NCBI GenBank assembly: GCA_049521495.1
Contig: JBEKOT010000002.1
Coordinates: 36,206 to 100,205 of the forward strand
Direction: 5' to 3'
Origin: Syntrophorhabdales bacterium
Lineage (GTDB): Bacteria; Desulfobacterota; Syntrophorhabdia; Syntrophorhabdales; WCHB1-27
Length of the DNA stretch: 64,000 nucleotides
How positions within the stretch are numbered: position 1 is the first letter of the stretch; each line of letters begins with the position of its first letter. The notes beneath the pieces were generated by a model that did not search any database, had not been told where the DNA came from, and saw only the letters and a program-made list of their open reading frames with translations. Made by a program: the position numbers and the translations under genes. Positions 37,462-42,418 of the stretch are shown in pieces.

Positions 37462-37953
37462 CTAGAGCATAACAACGCGCTGTAGTTCTATCATTATCGC
37501 CTTCGGAAAGACAAACACTCGGGAAGGCATCTCACCCTCGCTTTCCACTCCTACAAGCAGCATGATCGGCTCCGGGCAACTGTAGTTGGGGGATCGTGAT
37601 ACCTCCTGCATCTGCTCTATGTCTCTGCCGCTCGGATCCAGCCACACCGCTGTGTGATAATGCCACTCGCCCAGATAGTATTGCCGCTCTTTCTGCTCCC
37701 ATAGGCGCGCGAGCAAGGTCTTTAGCCCTGCTACTCCTCGATAGAACCAGCCGAAACCACTCTTCGAGTCCTTCGGCGCGGCCGTGGCCTGATGCACGAT
37801 GGCGGTATGGCTGTCCGCATAGTGTCCTATAAGGATGCCCCCTGTCTCTCTGTCGGTCTTCTTCCTCGTTTCCGTGACGATATTTTGCCATGCCTCATGA
37901 CGAACGTATACTACGTAGTTCCCATCGGCCGATGACCACCGGAGATCGTCCAT
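37462..37953 (-). CDS. cap3: CBASS Cap3-like JAB/JAMM isopeptidase
   Basis: 163 aa; RETGGILIGH (Glu) and EWHYHTAVWLDPSGRD, an exact HxHx7SxxD JAMM motif. Confidence 0.85.
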   Translation of the reverse strand: MDDLRWSSADGNYVVYVRHEAWQNIVTETRKKTDRETGGILIGHYADSHTAIVHQATAAPKDSKSGFGWFYRGVAGLKTLLARLWEQKERQYYLGEWHYHTAVWLDPSGRDIEQMQEVSRSPNYSCPEPIMLLVGVESEGEMPSRVFVFPKAIMIELQRVVML

Positions 37954-37956
37954 TCC

Positions 37957-39765
37957 TTATGAACCCACCCGTTTAAAGCCGGCGAAAATTCCATTGTCCG
38001 CGGTCTGCTCGTACACGAAAAGCTCGCTTCCTATTCTGCGGGCGCCACTCGCCTGTTCGATTACCTTGACGGTGGCCGAGGCGGCCATCGTAATATCGTC
38101 AAAACGGGCGGGGAAAAGCGGAGACCAACACCCCGCGCCTTCGAGAGTCTCTTCCTCGGAAGCCCAGGCTTCTCTTTCACTATCAGCCCAGGATGCGACG
38201 GCCTCCCTCATATGCCCTGCCTGGAACTGATTCCCATCCGAGACGAACAGGAAAAGGCGCTTGCCGAAGAGCCCCAATGACGCCGAGCAGAAGAGCTTCG
38301 GTACAGGCCACCAGGGAAGACCCATGGCCGCGACCACTTCGTCCGACCCGGTGCAGTCTATGATCAGGTCGAAAGGGTCCAGAAGGTTCCGGACGCCGTC
38401 CGTGGTCATCGGGAACCTGGAACGCACGCCTTCGATCCGGAGGTACGGATTGACAAGCCTAAGTGCGGCTGTGAGCGCGGGCGCCTTCCTTAAACCGATC
38501 TCCTTGAGAGTAAGAGCGTGCCGGACGATGTTCCCGGCCTCTAGCGTATCGGCGTCGAAAAGGGTGGCTCTGCCCGTTCCGCCCCGGACCATCAACTCCG
38601 CAATGGCGGACCCTAGGGCTCCTACGCCTACGAAGATGGTGTTAAGGCTCCGCAGCGAATGGTGAAGACGACCCCGGGCCTGCAGGCGGTCGGGGTGCCA
38701 GTTTTCTGTTTTGATGTATCTGATTTCTGTCTCATCGGGGAATAGCGTCCCGCTCTCTACGTTTCCCTTATAGGCATTGCCGAGCCCGTGCCTTTGTCGC
38801 CCTTCCCTTGACACAACGGGAATCTCGACCGCCTGCCAGTGGATTTCAGAAGGGATGTCACCCTTCCTCAGAGGTATCGGGCAGCCAAGAAGAAGGACTT
38901 CGCATTTCTTCCCCTGGACATGTTGCATGATCTTGCTCAGGTCGGCGTCGATGTCTATGCCCGCTTCCCTACCGGCCTGGCGCAGTTCCCCCCAAGTGAC
39001 GGGTGTCTGCCACGGTTTCAAAACAATGGGGCCCGGCCACCGCCACCAGACCCCCATCTGTCTCTCCGCATCGCCTCTGATAGCCCGGTCAACGGAAGAC
39101 CATCTCGTCTCCCGGACCGTGACCCTCCCGAAGGTAGTGAAGTCAACGACCGCCAGGGTGTTCGCCTGGTAGATCACGGTTTCGAAATCACAGTATCCTG
39201 ACTTTTCCGCTCGAGCTTCCCAGACATGGTACACGTCCGGCCCCTCGTCGTGGATGATCGTGAGATCGCCTTCCGAGACGTACTGAGGGATTTCGAACGG
39301 GTCGCCGACCCTGACCAGCTCACCCGTCGCCGCCGCAGAGAGCCATTTTAGCACGCGGGCGACATACCACACCAGCCTGGATTCCGGCTCCCCTATCGGG
39401 TCGTGACGTTCAAACCTGACGCCGACGTCCCTGTCGACGCTCTCGGCGCATATTTTCCCGCTCCGCCACGGTATTCCGGATTTTGCGGGCATGTTTCTTT
39501 CCTGATGGGGAAAGGTTGCAACGATTCCGCCCTGTTCGGCGGGATAAATAGTGATGGGGCCTAGCGGGTAGGCCGCATCCACGATCACGGCCCACGCGGT
39601 CGCGGGAGGGACATGCTCCGACGGGTTTTCAATGGAGAGGCGCAGCCGGAGGAGCCAGCTGTCCAACTTCGGCATGAATTCCGGCTCGGCCGTTATTTCG
39701 CATCCGTCTAACCCGGCGAGGGCTTTGAGGCCTGAAAGAAGGTCTCGACTGGGCCCCGCGCTCAT
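37957..39765 (-). CDS. cap2: CBASS Cap2-like E2/E1 (ThiF-family) fusion protein
   Basis: Start at ATG 39765 (ATGA overlap with the CD-NTase stop). C-terminal E1 domain VGVGALGSAIAELMVRGGTGRATLFDADTLEAGNIVRH...DLIIDCTGSDE; ~350-aa N-terminal region of E2-like size. Confidence 0.8.
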   Translation of the reverse strand: MSAGPSRDLLSGLKALAGLDGCEITAEPEFMPKLDSWLLRLRLSIENPSEHVPPATAWAVIVDAAYPLGPITIYPAEQGGIVATFPHQERNMPAKSGIPWRSGKICAESVDRDVGVRFERHDPIGEPESRLVWYVARVLKWLSAAATGELVRVGDPFEIPQYVSEGDLTIIHDEGPDVYHVWEARAEKSGYCDFETVIYQANTLAVVDFTTFGRVTVRETRWSSVDRAIRGDAERQMGVWWRWPGPIVLKPWQTPVTWGELRQAGREAGIDIDADLSKIMQHVQGKKCEVLLLGCPIPLRKGDIPSEIHWQAVEIPVVSREGRQRHGLGNAYKGNVESGTLFPDETEIRYIKTENWHPDRLQARGRLHHSLRSLNTIFVGVGALGSAIAELMVRGGTGRATLFDADTLEAGNIVRHALTLKEIGLRKAPALTAALRLVNPYLRIEGVRSRFPMTTDGVRNLLDPFDLIIDCTGSDEVVAAMGLPWWPVPKLFCSASLGLFGKRLFLFVSDGNQFQAGHMREAVASWADSEREAWASEEETLEGAGCWSPLFPARFDDITMAASATVKVIEQASGARRIGSELFVYEQTADNGIFAGFKRVGS

Positions 39766-40886: not shown

Positions 40887-40903
40887 TTCACCCCCCTTTT
40901 ATC

Positions 40904-42418
40904 TTACGGCAGGCACAAGCTGGCGCTGTAGCTGCCGTCCTTTTCACCGTCGAAATCGAATTCGTACAGCTGGACTCGCTTGAGGGCGGCTCCGTACTGG
41001 CCGAGGAAGAACATCAGGGCGTTCGGAGCCGCGACGAAAACGTGCGTGGTACCCCCGGCTTCATTAGCTTTCCTTATTATCGCCATGGCTTCCTCGGCCA
41101 GGCAATAGGCATGGTCTGCCCCGAGCAGCACCGAGGGACCTACGCCGACGACGGGCCGCAGGTGCACGACCTTGCCCACCTTGAGGTTTGCCGACTTCAT
41201 GAAGCGGCCCGCGTCCTTGCCGACGTCGTGCGTTACCGACAACATGAGGGCAATGTCGGGGTCCGCCCCCGAGATCTGGCTCTCCTCCACGCTCCACTTC
41301 CATTCATCTCGCTTCGGCCCGTAAGAAGGTTTCCATAACTCTTTTCCCCTGCCTTTCTGGATCGGGTAGGCAGGAATGCCCCCCTTCCTTTCCATACAGT
41401 AGCCGGCGAGGAAGGCGAGGGAGCTGTGACAGTCGAGGAGAAGGTGCATCTCCGTGCTGCGGCCGCACGGCGGGGAGGACAGGTAGGACACGATCGTGGG
41501 GACCACTTTCTCGTTCCACAGATCAGGATGCCTGATGTACCTCCTCTCGAAATGTTCCGCGACGCAGACGAAGTCGTCCGTCTCGTCCTCCATGCGCTCT
41601 GCGAACTTCATGAGGCTCCTAACCCCTATGATTTTCACCCCTCGTCCTTCGGCACGTTCGAGGACGAGGCCTTCCGCCCGGCATATCCCCAAAAGCCGGT
41701 CACGATCGAAATCGTTCTGCTTAGAGAGCAGAAAGTTGGTGTACAGGCTGTCGTAGGAGTTTGTCAGTTGACCGGCAGTTACGGGCTGTAATCCGCAAAG
41801 CTCAAGGCGATCGTTCAGGTTCTCCATAAACCAACGGCGGCCGAAATAGTTGAGACCGAACCTCAACTTGCGGGCAAAGTCGAGAAATTCGGTTTCATCG
41901 ATACATAGGTGCCGACGCCATGATTCCCTGACGGTACCTAGCGCCACTTTAGGGGATTGCTGGAAGAAGGCCTCAGGCAAAGAGCCTTCTCGCTCGTATA
42001 TGCTTGTTGCTACCGGGTCGTCGGGTCTCCAGGTCCAATTAGAGATGAAGTGCAGCCGGAAGAATTTGTATTTCAGTCGTAGTTTTCCGTAAGCGCCGTG
42101 CAAACGCTGCAGCAGCGACGATCTCGATGTCTGCGAGATGAAGGCAGGGTCGATGAAGGCTTCGGAGGAATAGCAGTCTCTCTGATCTACGTGGTACTTG
42201 CATTGAAAGAAATCGGCCTCGCTATAACCGATTCCGTCCCTTACCCCCGGAGGCTCATAAAAGACCGCTACGTCGTCCGCGCCTGATGCCTCGTCATGCT
42301 CGAAGGCAACTCTGATTACCTTCCTGTTCGGAAGGAGCAATGCACATGCCTGGTGCCAGAAAAATCTTCCTTGAAAAACGTCTCCCTCCACGCGGGCGGC
42401 AACTTGGTTCAGCGCCAC
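40904..42418 (-). CDS. cap4: CBASS effector: DUF4297/Cap4-like endonuclease domain fused to SAVED sensor domain
   Basis: 504 aa, GTG start behind AAGGAG. N-terminus GDVFQGRFFWHQA...ADDVAVFYE...FFQCKYH (D...QxK). C-terminal ...HLLLDCHSSLAFLAGY...THVFVAAPNALMFFLGQYG... is SAVED-like. Confidence 0.75.
   Translation of the reverse strand: MALNQVAARVEGDVFQGRFFWHQACALLLPNRKVIRVAFEHDEASGADDVAVFYEPPGVRDGIGYSEADFFQCKYHVDQRDCYSSEAFIDPAFISQTSRSSLLQRLHGAYGKLRLKYKFFRLHFISNWTWRPDDPVATSIYEREGSLPEAFFQQSPKVALGTVRESWRRHLCIDETEFLDFARKLRFGLNYFGRRWFMENLNDRLELCGLQPVTAGQLTNSYDSLYTNFLLSKQNDFDRDRLLGICRAEGLVLERAEGRGVKIIGVRSLMKFAERMEDETDDFVCVAEHFERRYIRHPDLWNEKVVPTIVSYLSSPPCGRSTEMHLLLDCHSSLAFLAGYCMERKGGIPAYPIQKGRGKELWKPSYGPKRDEWKWSVEESQISGADPDIALMLSVTHDVGKDAGRFMKSANLKVGKVVHLRPVVGVGPSVLLGADHAYCLAEEAMAIIRKANEAGGTTHVFVAAPNALMFFLGQYGAALKRVQLYEFDFDGEKDGSYSASLCLP

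What the first reader, a model, noticed from the sequence alone, without database searches (positions are those of the whole stretch)
37462..42418. Complete type II CBASS operon: Cap4-like nuclease-SAVED, CD-NTase, Cap2 (E2/E1), Cap3 (JAB)
Four co-directional minus-strand genes are separated by 3-17 bp gaps or a 4-bp ATGA overlap (CD-NTase stop and Cap2 start at 39762-39765).
- The CD-NTase ORF has the pol-beta nucleotidyltransferase signature: GS in LQGSYRRSTAV, DxD in ADVDIIVV, and a later acidic residue in ELDLVI.
- The Cap2-like ORF has a ThiF/E1 Rossmann motif (VGVGALGSAIAELMVRGG...DADTLEAGNIVRH) behind an E2-sized N-terminal region.
- The Cap3-like ORF has an exact JAMM motif (HYHTAVWLDPSGRD = HxHx7SxxD, plus Glu in RETGG).
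- The first gene has a D...QxK endonuclease-like core (ADDVAVFYE...FFQCKYH) and a SAVED-like C-terminal half (THVFVAAPNALMFFLGQYG).
- The CD-NTase ends in a Pro/Arg-rich tail ...PKRFA, compatible with Cap2-mediated C-terminal conjugation.
The system class is known. The signal nucleotide, the CD-NTase clade and the host context (an accessory island in what looks like an anaerobe) are not.
Basis: partly seen in the sequence, partly recalled or inferred. Interest (0 to 1): 0.7.

Follow-up and report, generated by a model that had tools for sequence, protein, structure and literature searches.

The report
Ordinary type II CBASS anti-phage operon
This is an intact four-gene bacterial anti-phage alarm system (type II CBASS) that closely mirrors the well-studied Enterobacter cloacae system, so it is a routine new example and not a new kind of system.

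Summary
The observation and the interpretation both hold. Four tightly packed minus-strand genes at 37462-42418 encode Cap4 (nuclease-SAVED effector), a CD-NTase, Cap2 (E2-linker-E1) and Cap3 (JAB). Gaps are 17 and 3 bp, and the cdn stop overlaps the cap2 start in a 4-bp ATGA.

- **Family matches.** All four proteins match PADLOC CBASS models end to end (E = 1e-51 to 4e-174).
- **Solved E. cloacae structures.** Three match them: CdnD, a cAAG synthase, at E = 7e-114 and 50% identity; Cap2 at 1e-71; Cap4 at 2e-54.
- **C-terminus.** The CD-NTase ends in ...RFA, like EcCdnD, the proven Cap2 substrate.
- **Predicted signal.** Published specificity positions (QGSx motif, Lid1 Thr, Lid2 Gln) predict mainly 3'3'3'-cAAG.
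- **Distribution.** The same gene order occurs in 11 genomes from many phyla and on Enterobacter plasmids.

The cassette is a GC-rich block with a conserved promoter. It lies in a region that carries a tyrosine integrase next to tRNA-Leu, in an uncultured anaerobe-like bacterium.

The only mild departures are a Cap4 from a sister subfamily of EcCap4 (29% identity) and the host. Verdict: a new member of a known kind, of low interest.

The parts
42475..42503 (-). Promoter-like site upstream of cap4: -35 TGGACT, 17-nt spacer, -10 TATATT
   Evidence: Consensus scan. The same hexamers and spacing are conserved in the nearest homologous cassette, L001 (TGGACT / TATAGT), although the flanks are otherwise unrelated. 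Function is inferred, not shown.
42419..42474 (-). Conserved 5' leader with an AAGGAG ribosome-binding site 5 nt before the GTG start of cap4
   Evidence: Alignment with L001. Nucleotide homology to L001 ends at window 42503.
40904..42418 (-). cap4: effector, N-terminal D...QxK endonuclease domain plus C-terminal SAVED sensor (504 aa)
   Evidence: PADLOC Effector/Endonuclease PDLC00752 2.5e-157 and SAVED_PDDEXK PDLC02004 2e-139, both full length. Pfam SAVED 1.1e-24. NCBIfam SAVED 4e-39. PDB 7YIB Cap4 2.3e-54 over residues 5-500. D48/D49, Q72 and K74 align with the EcCap4 DD...QxK; K74 sits where 7YIA carries Ala instead of the Lys of 7YIB. The N-terminal domain alone matches EcCap4 at E = 1.5e-17.
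39762..40886 (-). cdnD: CD-NTase (374 aa), predicted cyclic trinucleotide (cAAG-type) synthase with a C-terminal ...PKRFA tail
   Evidence: PADLOC Cyclase PDLC00822 1.6e-158, full length, the same best model as EcCdnD. Pfam SMODS 4.8e-28. PDB 7LJL/7D48/7TO3 'cyclic AMP-AMP-GMP synthase' about 7e-114, 49.6% identity. D69/D71/D121 and the substrate contacts are conserved. The ...RFA end is shared with EcCdnD and with all 11 homologues.
37957..39765 (-). cap2: E2-linker-E1 fusion (602 aa); its start overlaps the cdnD stop (ATGA)
   Evidence: PADLOC E1-E2 PDLC00848 4e-174, the same best model as EcCap2. Pfam ThiF 6.1e-18. PDB 7TO3_A Cap2 1.2e-71. Cys106 and Cys546 align with EcCap2 C109 and C548, both Ala in the 7TO3 construct. 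Public precomputed Pfam hits list Cap2_linker plus ThiF for this exact product.
37462..37953 (-). cap3: JAB/JAMM isopeptidase (163 aa)
   Evidence: PADLOC JAB PDLC00889 1.2e-51. Pfam Prok-JAB 7.7e-10, 39.1 bits against a cut-off of 25. E36 in RETGG and H98-x-H100-x7-S108-xx-D111 are conserved in the homologues. The PDB match is weak: 9ILD peptidase, 1.7e-5.

Best explanation
This is an intact type II CBASS anti-phage operon (cap4-cdnD-cap2-cap3) of the Enterobacter cloacae CdnD/Cap4 type, probably transcribed from one conserved promoter upstream of cap4. The mechanism below is inferred by homology; nothing was tested functionally here. Cap2 adenylates the C-terminal ...RFA tail of CdnD in its ThiF-like E1 site. 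It passes the tail as a thioester to Cys546 (E1) and then Cys106 (E2), and conjugates it to a target, which primes the cyclase. The JAB protease Cap3 removes the conjugate and so restrains signalling. On phage infection, CdnD (Asp69/Asp71/Asp121) makes a cyclic trinucleotide from ATP and GTP. The QGSY motif, Lid1 Thr201 and Lid2 Gln206 predict mainly 3'3'3'-cAAG, with cAAA as a possible minor product. The signal binds the SAVED domain of Cap4. Cap4 then oligomerises and its D48/D49...Q72-x-K74 nuclease domain degrades double-stranded DNA indiscriminately, which aborts the infection. The cassette is a horizontally mobile unit sitting in a mosaic region that also carries an integrase beside tRNA-Leu.
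For: The ORFs and junctions are as described. All four proteins give full-length PADLOC CBASS matches, and Pfam SAVED, SMODS, ThiF and Prok-JAB are all above their cut-offs. Solved E. cloacae structures match: CdnD 7e-114, Cap2 1.2e-71, Cap4 2.3e-54. CdnD is 49.6% identical to EcCdnD; the catalytic Asp triad and 9 of 10 listed substrate contacts are identical, with Y250 replaced by F245. The published specificity rule says Gln at the first XGSX position plus Gln at Lid2 gives predominantly cAAG (PMC13424991). The query has QGSY, T201 and Q206, and Q51 and Q206 are kept in all 11 homologues (Lid1 is Ser in L002). EcCdnD ends ...KTGRFA and that tail is the Cap2 substrate; the query ends ...PKRFA, and RFA is invariant in 12 of 12 sequences. 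Both Cap2 catalytic cysteines align. The Cap4 catalytic Lys aligns with the Lys/Ala difference between 7YIB and 7YIA. The same gene order is found in 11 loci across phyla and on an E. cloacae plasmid, where cdnD and cap2 also overlap by 4 bp. The promoter-like site is conserved with L001. The query CdnD is about 48% identical to the Enterobacter enzymes but only 29-35% identical to the Acinetobacter and Moraxella enzymes.
Against: There is no functional evidence. Cap4 is only 29% identical to EcCap4, and its best PADLOC model (PDLC00752) differs from EcCap4's best (PDLC00737), so the ligand it senses could differ. Pfam DUF4297 does not detect the nuclease domain even at E = 10. The query's XGSX motif is QGSY, not QGSI, and Tyr250 of EcCdnD is Phe. 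The NCBIfam CBASS cyclase and Cap3 equivalog models score well below their cut-offs. The phage trigger and the Cap2 conjugation target are unknown. No structure was predicted.
Confidence: 0.9

Rival explanations
1. The architecture and logic are type II CBASS, but the signal is not cAAG. The CdnD would make mainly 3'3'3'-cAAA or a 2'-5'-containing trinucleotide, and the sister-subfamily Cap4 would be tuned to that ligand.
For: Cap4 is 29% identical to EcCap4 and falls best in a different PADLOC Cap4 model, PDLC00752 against PDLC00737. Cap4 proteins are reported to differ in the position of the ligand site and in ligand: AbCap4 binds 2'3'3'-cAAA and EcCap4 binds cAAG (PMC10419184). EcCdnD itself makes cAAA as a minor product. 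The query has QGSY, not QGSI, and F245 in place of Y250.
Against: Both published determinants of GTP use, Gln at the first XGSX position and Gln at Lid2, are present. The query CdnD is much closer to the Enterobacter enzymes (about 48%) than to the Acinetobacter and Moraxella enzymes (29-35%). Searching plasmids with the query Cap4 found no Acinetobacter record at E <= 1e-5, and the PDB search returned only the 7YIA/7YIB Cap4 entries.
Confidence: 0.2
2. The operon is a decaying or silent remnant that no longer defends the cell.
For: No expression or functional data exist. No known CBASS transcriptional regulator lies next to it.
Against: All four ORFs are intact with ribosome-binding sites. 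All catalytic residues are conserved. The promoter-like site is conserved. The identical CdnD protein is indexed in 142 blocks of public assemblies, and in the 23 contigs read it sits in the same context.
Confidence: 0.04
3. It is a different ubiquitin-like conjugation system, for example a 6A-MBL-type or Bil-like E1/E2/JAB module, and not CBASS.
For: The best NCBIfam hit for both Cap2 and Cap3 is the '6A-MBL system cap2_3' model (6.5e-34 and 5.7e-22).
Against: Those scores (117.5 and 78 bits) are far below the model's cut-off of 320. The E1/E2 and JAB genes here are separate and sit directly beside a CD-NTase and a SAVED effector. Cap2 matches EcCap2 at 1.2e-71 and shares its best PADLOC model.
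Confidence: 0.01

Closest known systems
Enterobacter cloacae type II CBASS (Cap4 - CdnD/CdnD02 - Cap2 - Cap3), signal 3'3'3'-cAAG; structures 7LJL, 7D48, 7TO3, 7YIB
   Same: The gene order is the same, including the 4-bp cdnD/cap2 overlap. The best PADLOC sub-models for the cyclase and for Cap2 are the same. The Asp triad, the QGSx motif and the Lid1 Thr / Lid2 Gln positions are conserved. Both CD-NTases end in ...RFA. Both Cap2 catalytic cysteines and the Cap4 DD...QxK core align.
   Different: Sequence divergence is substantial: CdnD 50%, Cap2 30% and Cap4 29% identity. Cap4 falls in a sister PADLOC subfamily. The motif is QGSY, not QGSI, and Y250 is Phe. The host is an uncultured anaerobe-like bacterium with the operon on the chromosome or an island, not an enterobacterial IncF plasmid.
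Bacillus cereus type II CBASS (BcCdnD, 3'3'3'-cA3, Cap4, Cap2/Cap3; structure 9SA4)
   Same: It is also a type II system with Cap4, Cap2 and Cap3, and its cyclase was assigned to clade D. It is the second-best group of PDB matches (E = 7e-48; PMC13424991).
   Different: BcCdnD has SGSY and Lid2 His and makes cA3. The query has Gln at both positions. The match covers mainly the C-terminal half (query residues 187-355).
Acinetobacter baumannii / Moraxella osloensis CdnD-Cap4 systems (2'3'3'-cAAA; AbCap4 structure 6VM6)
   Same: The logic is the same: a trinucleotide activates a SAVED nuclease (PMC10419184).
   Different: The CD-NTase is only 29-35% identical. Searching with the query Cap4 found no Acinetobacter plasmid at E <= 1e-5, and no Cap4 entry other than 7YIA/7YIB appeared in the PDB search.
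Operon in the 'uncultured delta proteobacterium' MAG CAWFMJ010000029 (locus L001)
   Same: It is the nearest relative found: Cap4 77%, CdnD 79%, Cap2 61% and Cap3 71% amino-acid identity, and 75% nucleotide identity across exactly the operon plus the promoter region.
   Different: The flanks are unrelated, except that a homologue of the window's 215-aa HTH gene (48629-49276) lies immediately downstream of cap3 in L001.

Membership tests
Type II CBASS (CD-NTase + effector + Cap2 + Cap3) | A CD-NTase (SMODS) gene | tested here: met
   Pfam SMODS 4.8e-28, 98.9 bits against a cut-off of 26.5. PADLOC Cyclase 1.6e-158, full length. PDB EcCdnD 7e-114.
Type II CBASS (CD-NTase + effector + Cap2 + Cap3) | An adjacent effector with a cyclic-oligonucleotide sensor domain | tested here: met
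   SAVED domain: Pfam 1.1e-24 and NCBIfam 4e-39, both above their cut-offs. The gene ends 17 bp before the cdnD start.
Type II CBASS (CD-NTase + effector + Cap2 + Cap3) | A Cap2 E1/E2 fusion and a Cap3 JAB protease in the same operon | tested here: met
   PADLOC E1-E2 4e-174 and JAB 1.2e-51. The junctions are a 4-bp overlap and a 3-bp gap.
Type II CBASS (CD-NTase + effector + Cap2 + Cap3) | Protection against phage | not testable with these tools
   This needs heterologous expression and phage challenge.
CD-NTase clade D, E. cloacae CdnD-like | Pol-beta active site: GS motif and the Asp triad (EcCdnD D69, D71, D121) | tested here: met
   G52-S53, D69, D71 and D121 align one to one. They are invariant in 11 homologues.
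CD-NTase clade D, E. cloacae CdnD-like | Closer to EcCdnD than to other characterised CD-NTases | tested here: met
   Identity is 49.6% over 369 aligned residues. The best PADLOC model, PDLC00822, is the same as for EcCdnD. The next PDB group scores E = 7e-48.
CD-NTase clade D, E. cloacae CdnD-like | Placement on the published CD-NTase clade tree | not tested
Clade D is inferred from the nearest characterised relatives, which PMC13424991 calls clade D.
CD-NTase clade D, E. cloacae CdnD-like | cAAG-type specificity positions: Gln at the first XGSX position, Lid1 Thr, Lid2 Gln | tested here: met
   The query has QGSY (Q51), T201 and Q206. The rule is quoted from PMC13424991. The actual product is not testable here.
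Cap4 (nuclease-SAVED effector) | C-terminal SAVED domain | tested here: met
   Pfam SAVED covers residues 321-501 and NCBIfam SAVED covers 245-504. The C-terminal half matches EcCap4 at 2.8e-29.
Cap4 (nuclease-SAVED effector) | N-terminal D...(Q/E)xK endonuclease core homologous to EcCap4 | tested here: met
   The 7YIB alignment starts at residue 5. D48/D49, Q72 and K74 align, and K74 lies at the Lys/Ala difference between 7YIB and 7YIA. The N-terminal 240 aa alone match at E = 1.5e-17.
Cap4 (nuclease-SAVED effector) | Detection by the Pfam DUF4297 profile | tested here: not met
   Residues 1-250 gave no Pfam hit even at E <= 10. The nuclease assignment therefore rests on EcCap4 and PADLOC homology.
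Cap4 (nuclease-SAVED effector) | Ligand-induced oligomerisation and dsDNA cleavage | not testable with these tools
   This needs biochemistry.
Cap2 (E2-linker-E1) | ThiF/MoeB-like adenylation domain with a nucleotide-binding Rossmann motif | tested here: met
   Pfam ThiF 6.1e-18, 65.3 bits against a cut-off of 28.1, residues 369-472. GxGxLGS and GN(I/L)VRH are conserved.
Cap2 (E2-linker-E1) | E1 and E2 catalytic cysteines (EcCap2 C548 and C109) | tested here: met
   Cys546 and Cys106 align with the two positions that are Ala in the 7TO3 construct. Both are invariant in 11 homologues.
Cap2 (E2-linker-E1) | A cognate CD-NTase with a compatible disordered C-terminal tail | tested here: met
   The query ends ...PKRFA and EcCdnD ends ...TGRFA. 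RFA is invariant in 12 of 12 sequences.
Cap3 (JAB/JAMM isopeptidase) | JAMM motif: E ... HxH-x7-S-xx-D | tested here: met
   E36 and H98, H100, S108, D111 are present and conserved in the homologues. Pfam Prok-JAB is above its cut-off.
Cap3 (JAB/JAMM isopeptidase) | NCBIfam equivalog NF050170 (CD-NTase/cGAS isopeptidase Cap3) | tested here: not met
   The score is 33.8 bits against a cut-off of 200. That model evidently describes a different Cap3 sub-lineage. PADLOC JAB PDLC00889 fits at 1.2e-51.

The most novel reading that the evidence does not exclude
The Cap4 here belongs to a sister subfamily (PADLOC PDLC00752; 29% identity to EcCap4) that is paired across many phyla with EcCdnD-like cyclases. 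It could recognise its trinucleotide in a different pocket, or prefer a different ligand, from either of the two described Cap4 binding modes. Separately, the LuxI/LuxR-like genes 4-6 kb upstream could place the operon under population-density control in an anaerobic syntroph-like host.
Probability: 0.1. Interest if true: 0.35.

Novelty: new member of a known kind. Interest (0 to 1): 0.15.

Why it matters
The practical value is modest. The locus adds a clean, intact example of the E. cloacae-type CdnD/Cap4/Cap2/Cap3 system from an uncultured anaerobe-like bacterium. It shows that the four-gene cassette, its promoter region and the invariant ...RFA conjugation tail travel together across at least eight phylum-level groups. 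It also points to a Cap4 sister subfamily that has not been characterised structurally. It does not open a new question: the architecture, the catalytic residues and the likely signal are all predictable from published work.

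Tried and rejected
- **att repeat of the tRNA-Leu 3' end.** I searched for one to define the island borders. 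Direct repeats with a 12-nt seed, the longest exact matches, and a 22-mer with 3 mismatches all found nothing. The borders remain undefined.
- **Strain variants without the cassette.** I looked up the flanking 584-aa oxidoreductase. All contigs read have the same context.
- **Source genome.** It is not among the GTDB species representatives; the best hit is 79% identical. Host taxonomy is therefore inferred only from gene content.
- **Pfam on the Cap4 N-terminus and the Cap2 N-terminus at E <= 10.** No hits; DUF4297 is not detected.
- **CBASS regulators next to the operon.** I checked the upstream ORFs (42943-43479 and neighbours) for CapW or CapH/CapP-like regulators and other defence models. 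Nothing was found directly adjacent.
- **Papers.** The Nature paper on E. cloacae Cap2 and a guessed PMC id for the original Cap4 paper are not held. I used the bioRxiv version, a review and later papers instead.
- **Structure prediction and fold search.** I did not run them. An informative alignment would have needed a database-wide search, and the sequence matches to solved structures (E = 1e-54 to 1e-114) already settle the folds of CdnD, Cap2 and Cap4.
- **6A-MBL cap2_3 reading.** Rejected because the scores are far below the cut-off.

Full report
**Observation.**
- cap4-like, 40904-42418, 504 aa, GTG start
- CD-NTase, 39762-40886, 374 aa
- cap2-like, 37957-39765, 602 aa from the ATG
- cap3-like, 37462-37953, 163 aa

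Reading the junctions confirms the spacing. A 17-nt spacer containing a G-rich ribosome-binding site lies between cap4 and the cyclase. The cyclase stop and the cap2 start overlap as ATGA at 39765-39762. A 3-nt gap separates cap2 from cap3. The mechanical ORF list extends cap2 to an upstream GTG at 39876. The alignments to EcCap2 (query 37 to chain 39) and to the PADLOC model (5-600 to 6-601 of 607) fit the ATG start.

**Identity of the four proteins.**
- *Pfam*, all above curated cut-offs: SAVED 1.1e-24, SMODS 4.8e-28, ThiF 6.1e-18, Prok-JAB 7.7e-10.
- *PADLOC*, all end to end: Effector/Endonuclease PDLC00752 2.5e-157 (and SAVED_PDDEXK 2e-139), Cyclase PDLC00822 1.6e-158, E1-E2 PDLC00848 4e-174, JAB PDLC00889 1.2e-51.
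- *Solved structures*: the cyclase matches 'cyclic AMP-AMP-GMP synthase' of E. cloacae (7LJL, 7D48, 7TO3) at about 7e-114. Cap4 matches 7YIB at 2.3e-54 over residues 5-500. Cap2 matches 7TO3 chain A at 1.2e-71. Cap3 matches only weakly (9ILD, 1.7e-5).
- *Misses*: Pfam DUF4297 does not detect the Cap4 N-terminal domain even at E <= 10. That domain alone still aligns to the EcCap4 N-terminus at E = 1.5e-17. The NCBIfam equivalog models for CBASS cyclases and Cap3 score below their cut-offs. They appear to describe other sub-lineages.

**Do the quoted motifs sit on the active sites?** Yes, in all four proteins.
- *CdnD.* It is 49.6% identical to EcCdnD (183 of 369 aligned residues). D69, D71 and D121 are the residues shown to be essential in EcCdnD (PMC8096243), and they align one to one. 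So do Q51, S53, R56, T125, D196, T205, Q210, D296 and V304. Only Y250 differs; it is Phe245 here.
- *Cap2.* It is 30% identical to EcCap2. Cys106 and Cys546 align with C109 (E2) and C548 (E1). Both are Ala in the 7TO3 construct, as the preprint states.
- *Cap4.* It is 29% identical to EcCap4. D48/D49 and Q72-x-K74 align with the DD...QxK of EcCap4. K74 lies exactly where 7YIA differs from 7YIB by Lys to Ala.
- *Cap3.* It carries E36 and H98-x-H100-x7-S108-xx-D111.

All of these residues are invariant or nearly so in 11 homologous operons.

**C-terminal tail.** The crystallised EcCdnD tail (residues 370-381) reads KPAEPQKTGRFA. It is the part adenylated in the Cap2 E1 site. The query ends ...ARPAPKRFA, and all 11 homologues end ...RFA.

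**Clade and signal.** EcCdnD's best PADLOC cyclase model is the same as the query's (PDLC00822). EcCap2's best model is also the query's (PDLC00848). The nearest characterised relatives, EcCdnD and SeCdnD, are called clade D enzymes (PMC13424991). That paper summarises the specificity rule of Govande et al.: Gln at the first position of the XGSX motif favours GTP in the acceptor site. For Lid2 it reports that Gln goes with predominantly 3'3'3'-cAAG, whereas Ser or Thr at XGSX and His at Lid2 go with cAAA. The query has QGSY, Lid1 T201 and Lid2 Q206. The query cyclase is about 48% identical to the Enterobacter, Salmonella and Klebsiella enzymes and only 29-35% identical to the Acinetobacter and Moraxella enzymes. 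I therefore predict a cyclic trinucleotide, most likely 3'3'3'-cAAG. This is an inference from residues, not a measurement.

**One mild departure.** EcCap4's best PADLOC model is PDLC00737, with PDLC00752 third. The query shows the reverse order. Searching with the query Cap4 finds no Acinetobacter record among plasmids, and the PDB search returned only 7YIA/7YIB. The effector therefore belongs to a sister Cap4 subfamily that has no solved structure. A review reports that Cap4 proteins differ in where the ligand binds the SAVED domain. The ligand preference here is accordingly less certain than the cyclase chemistry.

**Distribution and cassette limits.**
- A scan of GTDB species representatives found 11 loci with the same order cap4-cdnD-cap2-cap3. 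They come from MAGs or genomes labelled delta proteobacterium, Armatimonadetes, Myxococcales/Sandaracinus, Spirulinaceae, Planctomycetaceae, Thermoanaerobaculales, Kushneria, Chromatiaceae and Chitinophaga. CdnD identity is 59-79% and Cap4 identity 43-77%.
- An E. cloacae IncF plasmid has the same order, including the 4-bp cdnD/cap2 overlap.
- Nucleotide similarity to the nearest relative, L001, runs from window 37461 to 42503 only (75% over 5078 nt). That span is the operon plus about 85 bp upstream.
- The upstream stretch holds a promoter-like site (-35 TGGACT, 17 nt, -10 TATATT, 42503-42475). The site is conserved in L001, as are the AAGGAG ribosome-binding site and the GTG start.
- The cassette is GC-rich (0.56-0.61) against flanks of about 0.47-0.52.
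- The identical CdnD protein is indexed in 142 blocks of public assemblies. In the 23 contigs read it has the same neighbours. The sequence is therefore already public and carries SMODS and SAVED Pfam hits there.

**Context.**
- Upstream of the operon in window coordinates lie an HdrA/MvhD-type flavin/FeS cluster and a methylmalonyl-CoA mutase / acyl-CoA cluster. These fit an anaerobic, syntroph-like host. This is inference from gene content; the source genome was not found.
- On the other side lies an integrative-element core next to tRNA-Leu at 56485-56568. It comprises an int-alpA RNA, a DUF3854 gene, HTH_17 and HTH_3 genes, and a tyrosine integrase at 55335-56444.
- No att repeat was found. 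'Accessory island' is therefore plausible but not delimited.
- No known CBASS regulator is adjacent.

**Mechanism.**
- *Shown here:* the gene content, the order, the intact ORFs, the active-site residues, the conserved tail and the conserved promoter-like site.
- *Inferred from the E. cloacae, V. cholerae and B. cereus work:* Cap2 adenylates the CdnD C-terminus and conjugates it through Cys546 and Cys106, which primes the cyclase. Cap3 reverses the conjugation. Infection triggers trinucleotide synthesis. SAVED binding oligomerises Cap4, and its nuclease degrades DNA and aborts the infection.

**Verdict.** The finding is real and correctly interpreted, but it is ordinary. It is a new member of the best-characterised type II CBASS family. 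It has a somewhat divergent Cap4 and an unusual but unremarkable host. Interest is 0.15.

Noticed in passing
window 44292-45722 (+): Two co-directional genes lie 1.9 kb upstream of cap4. The first is a 266-aa protein with no family hit whose C-terminus contains RNLCGH, an Rx4H pattern that looks HEPN-like by eye. The second is a 189-aa protein matching the PADLOC candidate defence protein PDC-M35B (3.6e-22). They may be a second defence module beside the CBASS.
   Followed up: partly
window 46135-48374: Three regulatory-type genes: a LuxR-type regulator (46135-46719, minus), a LuxI-like autoinducer-synthase or exosortase-associated acyltransferase-like gene (46943-47695, plus; Autoind_synth 1.8e-12), and an autoinducer-binding LuxR (47616-48374, minus). 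A quorum-sensing-like pair in an anaerobe-like genome, 4-6 kb from the CBASS operon.
   Followed up: partly
window 49674-49739 (+): Rfam int-alpA RNA motif, 39.7 bits against a gathering score of 35.8. It lies between the HTH gene at 48629-49276 and the DUF5659 / DUF3854 genes. Its name associates it with integrase and AlpA genes of mobile elements.
   Followed up: no
window 50552-56568: An integrative-element core: DUF3854 (toprim-like) at 50552-51154, an unknown 615-aa protein at 51151-52998, HTH_17 at 54766-55005, HTH_3 at 55102-55335, and a tyrosine integrase at 55335-56444 directly beside tRNA-Leu at 56485-56568 (minus). No att direct repeat was found.
   Followed up: partly
window 48629-49276 (-) and L001 7912-8559: A 215-aa protein with a weak N-terminal HTH match has a 54%-identical homologue immediately downstream of cap3 in the nearest related cassette, L001. 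None of the other ten loci has it. This could be shared mobile-element ancestry or a lineage-specific regulator.
   Followed up: partly
window 22707-25772 and 4988-5728: More mobile-element genes: ParB-like (22707-23498), Mu-transposase C-terminal domain (24227-24940) with IstB/IS21 ATPase (24981-25772), and a serine resolvase (4988-5728). GC rises from about 0.48-0.52 to 0.58-0.60 at about 22 kb. The mosaic region may therefore be much larger than the CBASS neighbourhood.
   Followed up: no
window 26463-34852 and 7362-21298: One cluster (26463-34852) encodes an HdrA/MvhD-type fusion, a GltD-like FeS flavoprotein and an old-yellow-enzyme-type oxidoreductase. A second cluster (7362-21298) encodes methylmalonyl-CoA mutase, MeaB, acyl-CoA synthetases and a thiolase. 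This metabolism is typical of anaerobic, syntrophic fatty-acid degraders.
   Followed up: no
window 35297-35479 (-): A 60-aa ORF matches DUF2080, 'putative transposon-encoded protein' (1.8e-6). It lies in the low-GC gap (about 0.47) between the GNAT gene and the CBASS cassette, which is a possible cassette or island boundary.
   Followed up: no
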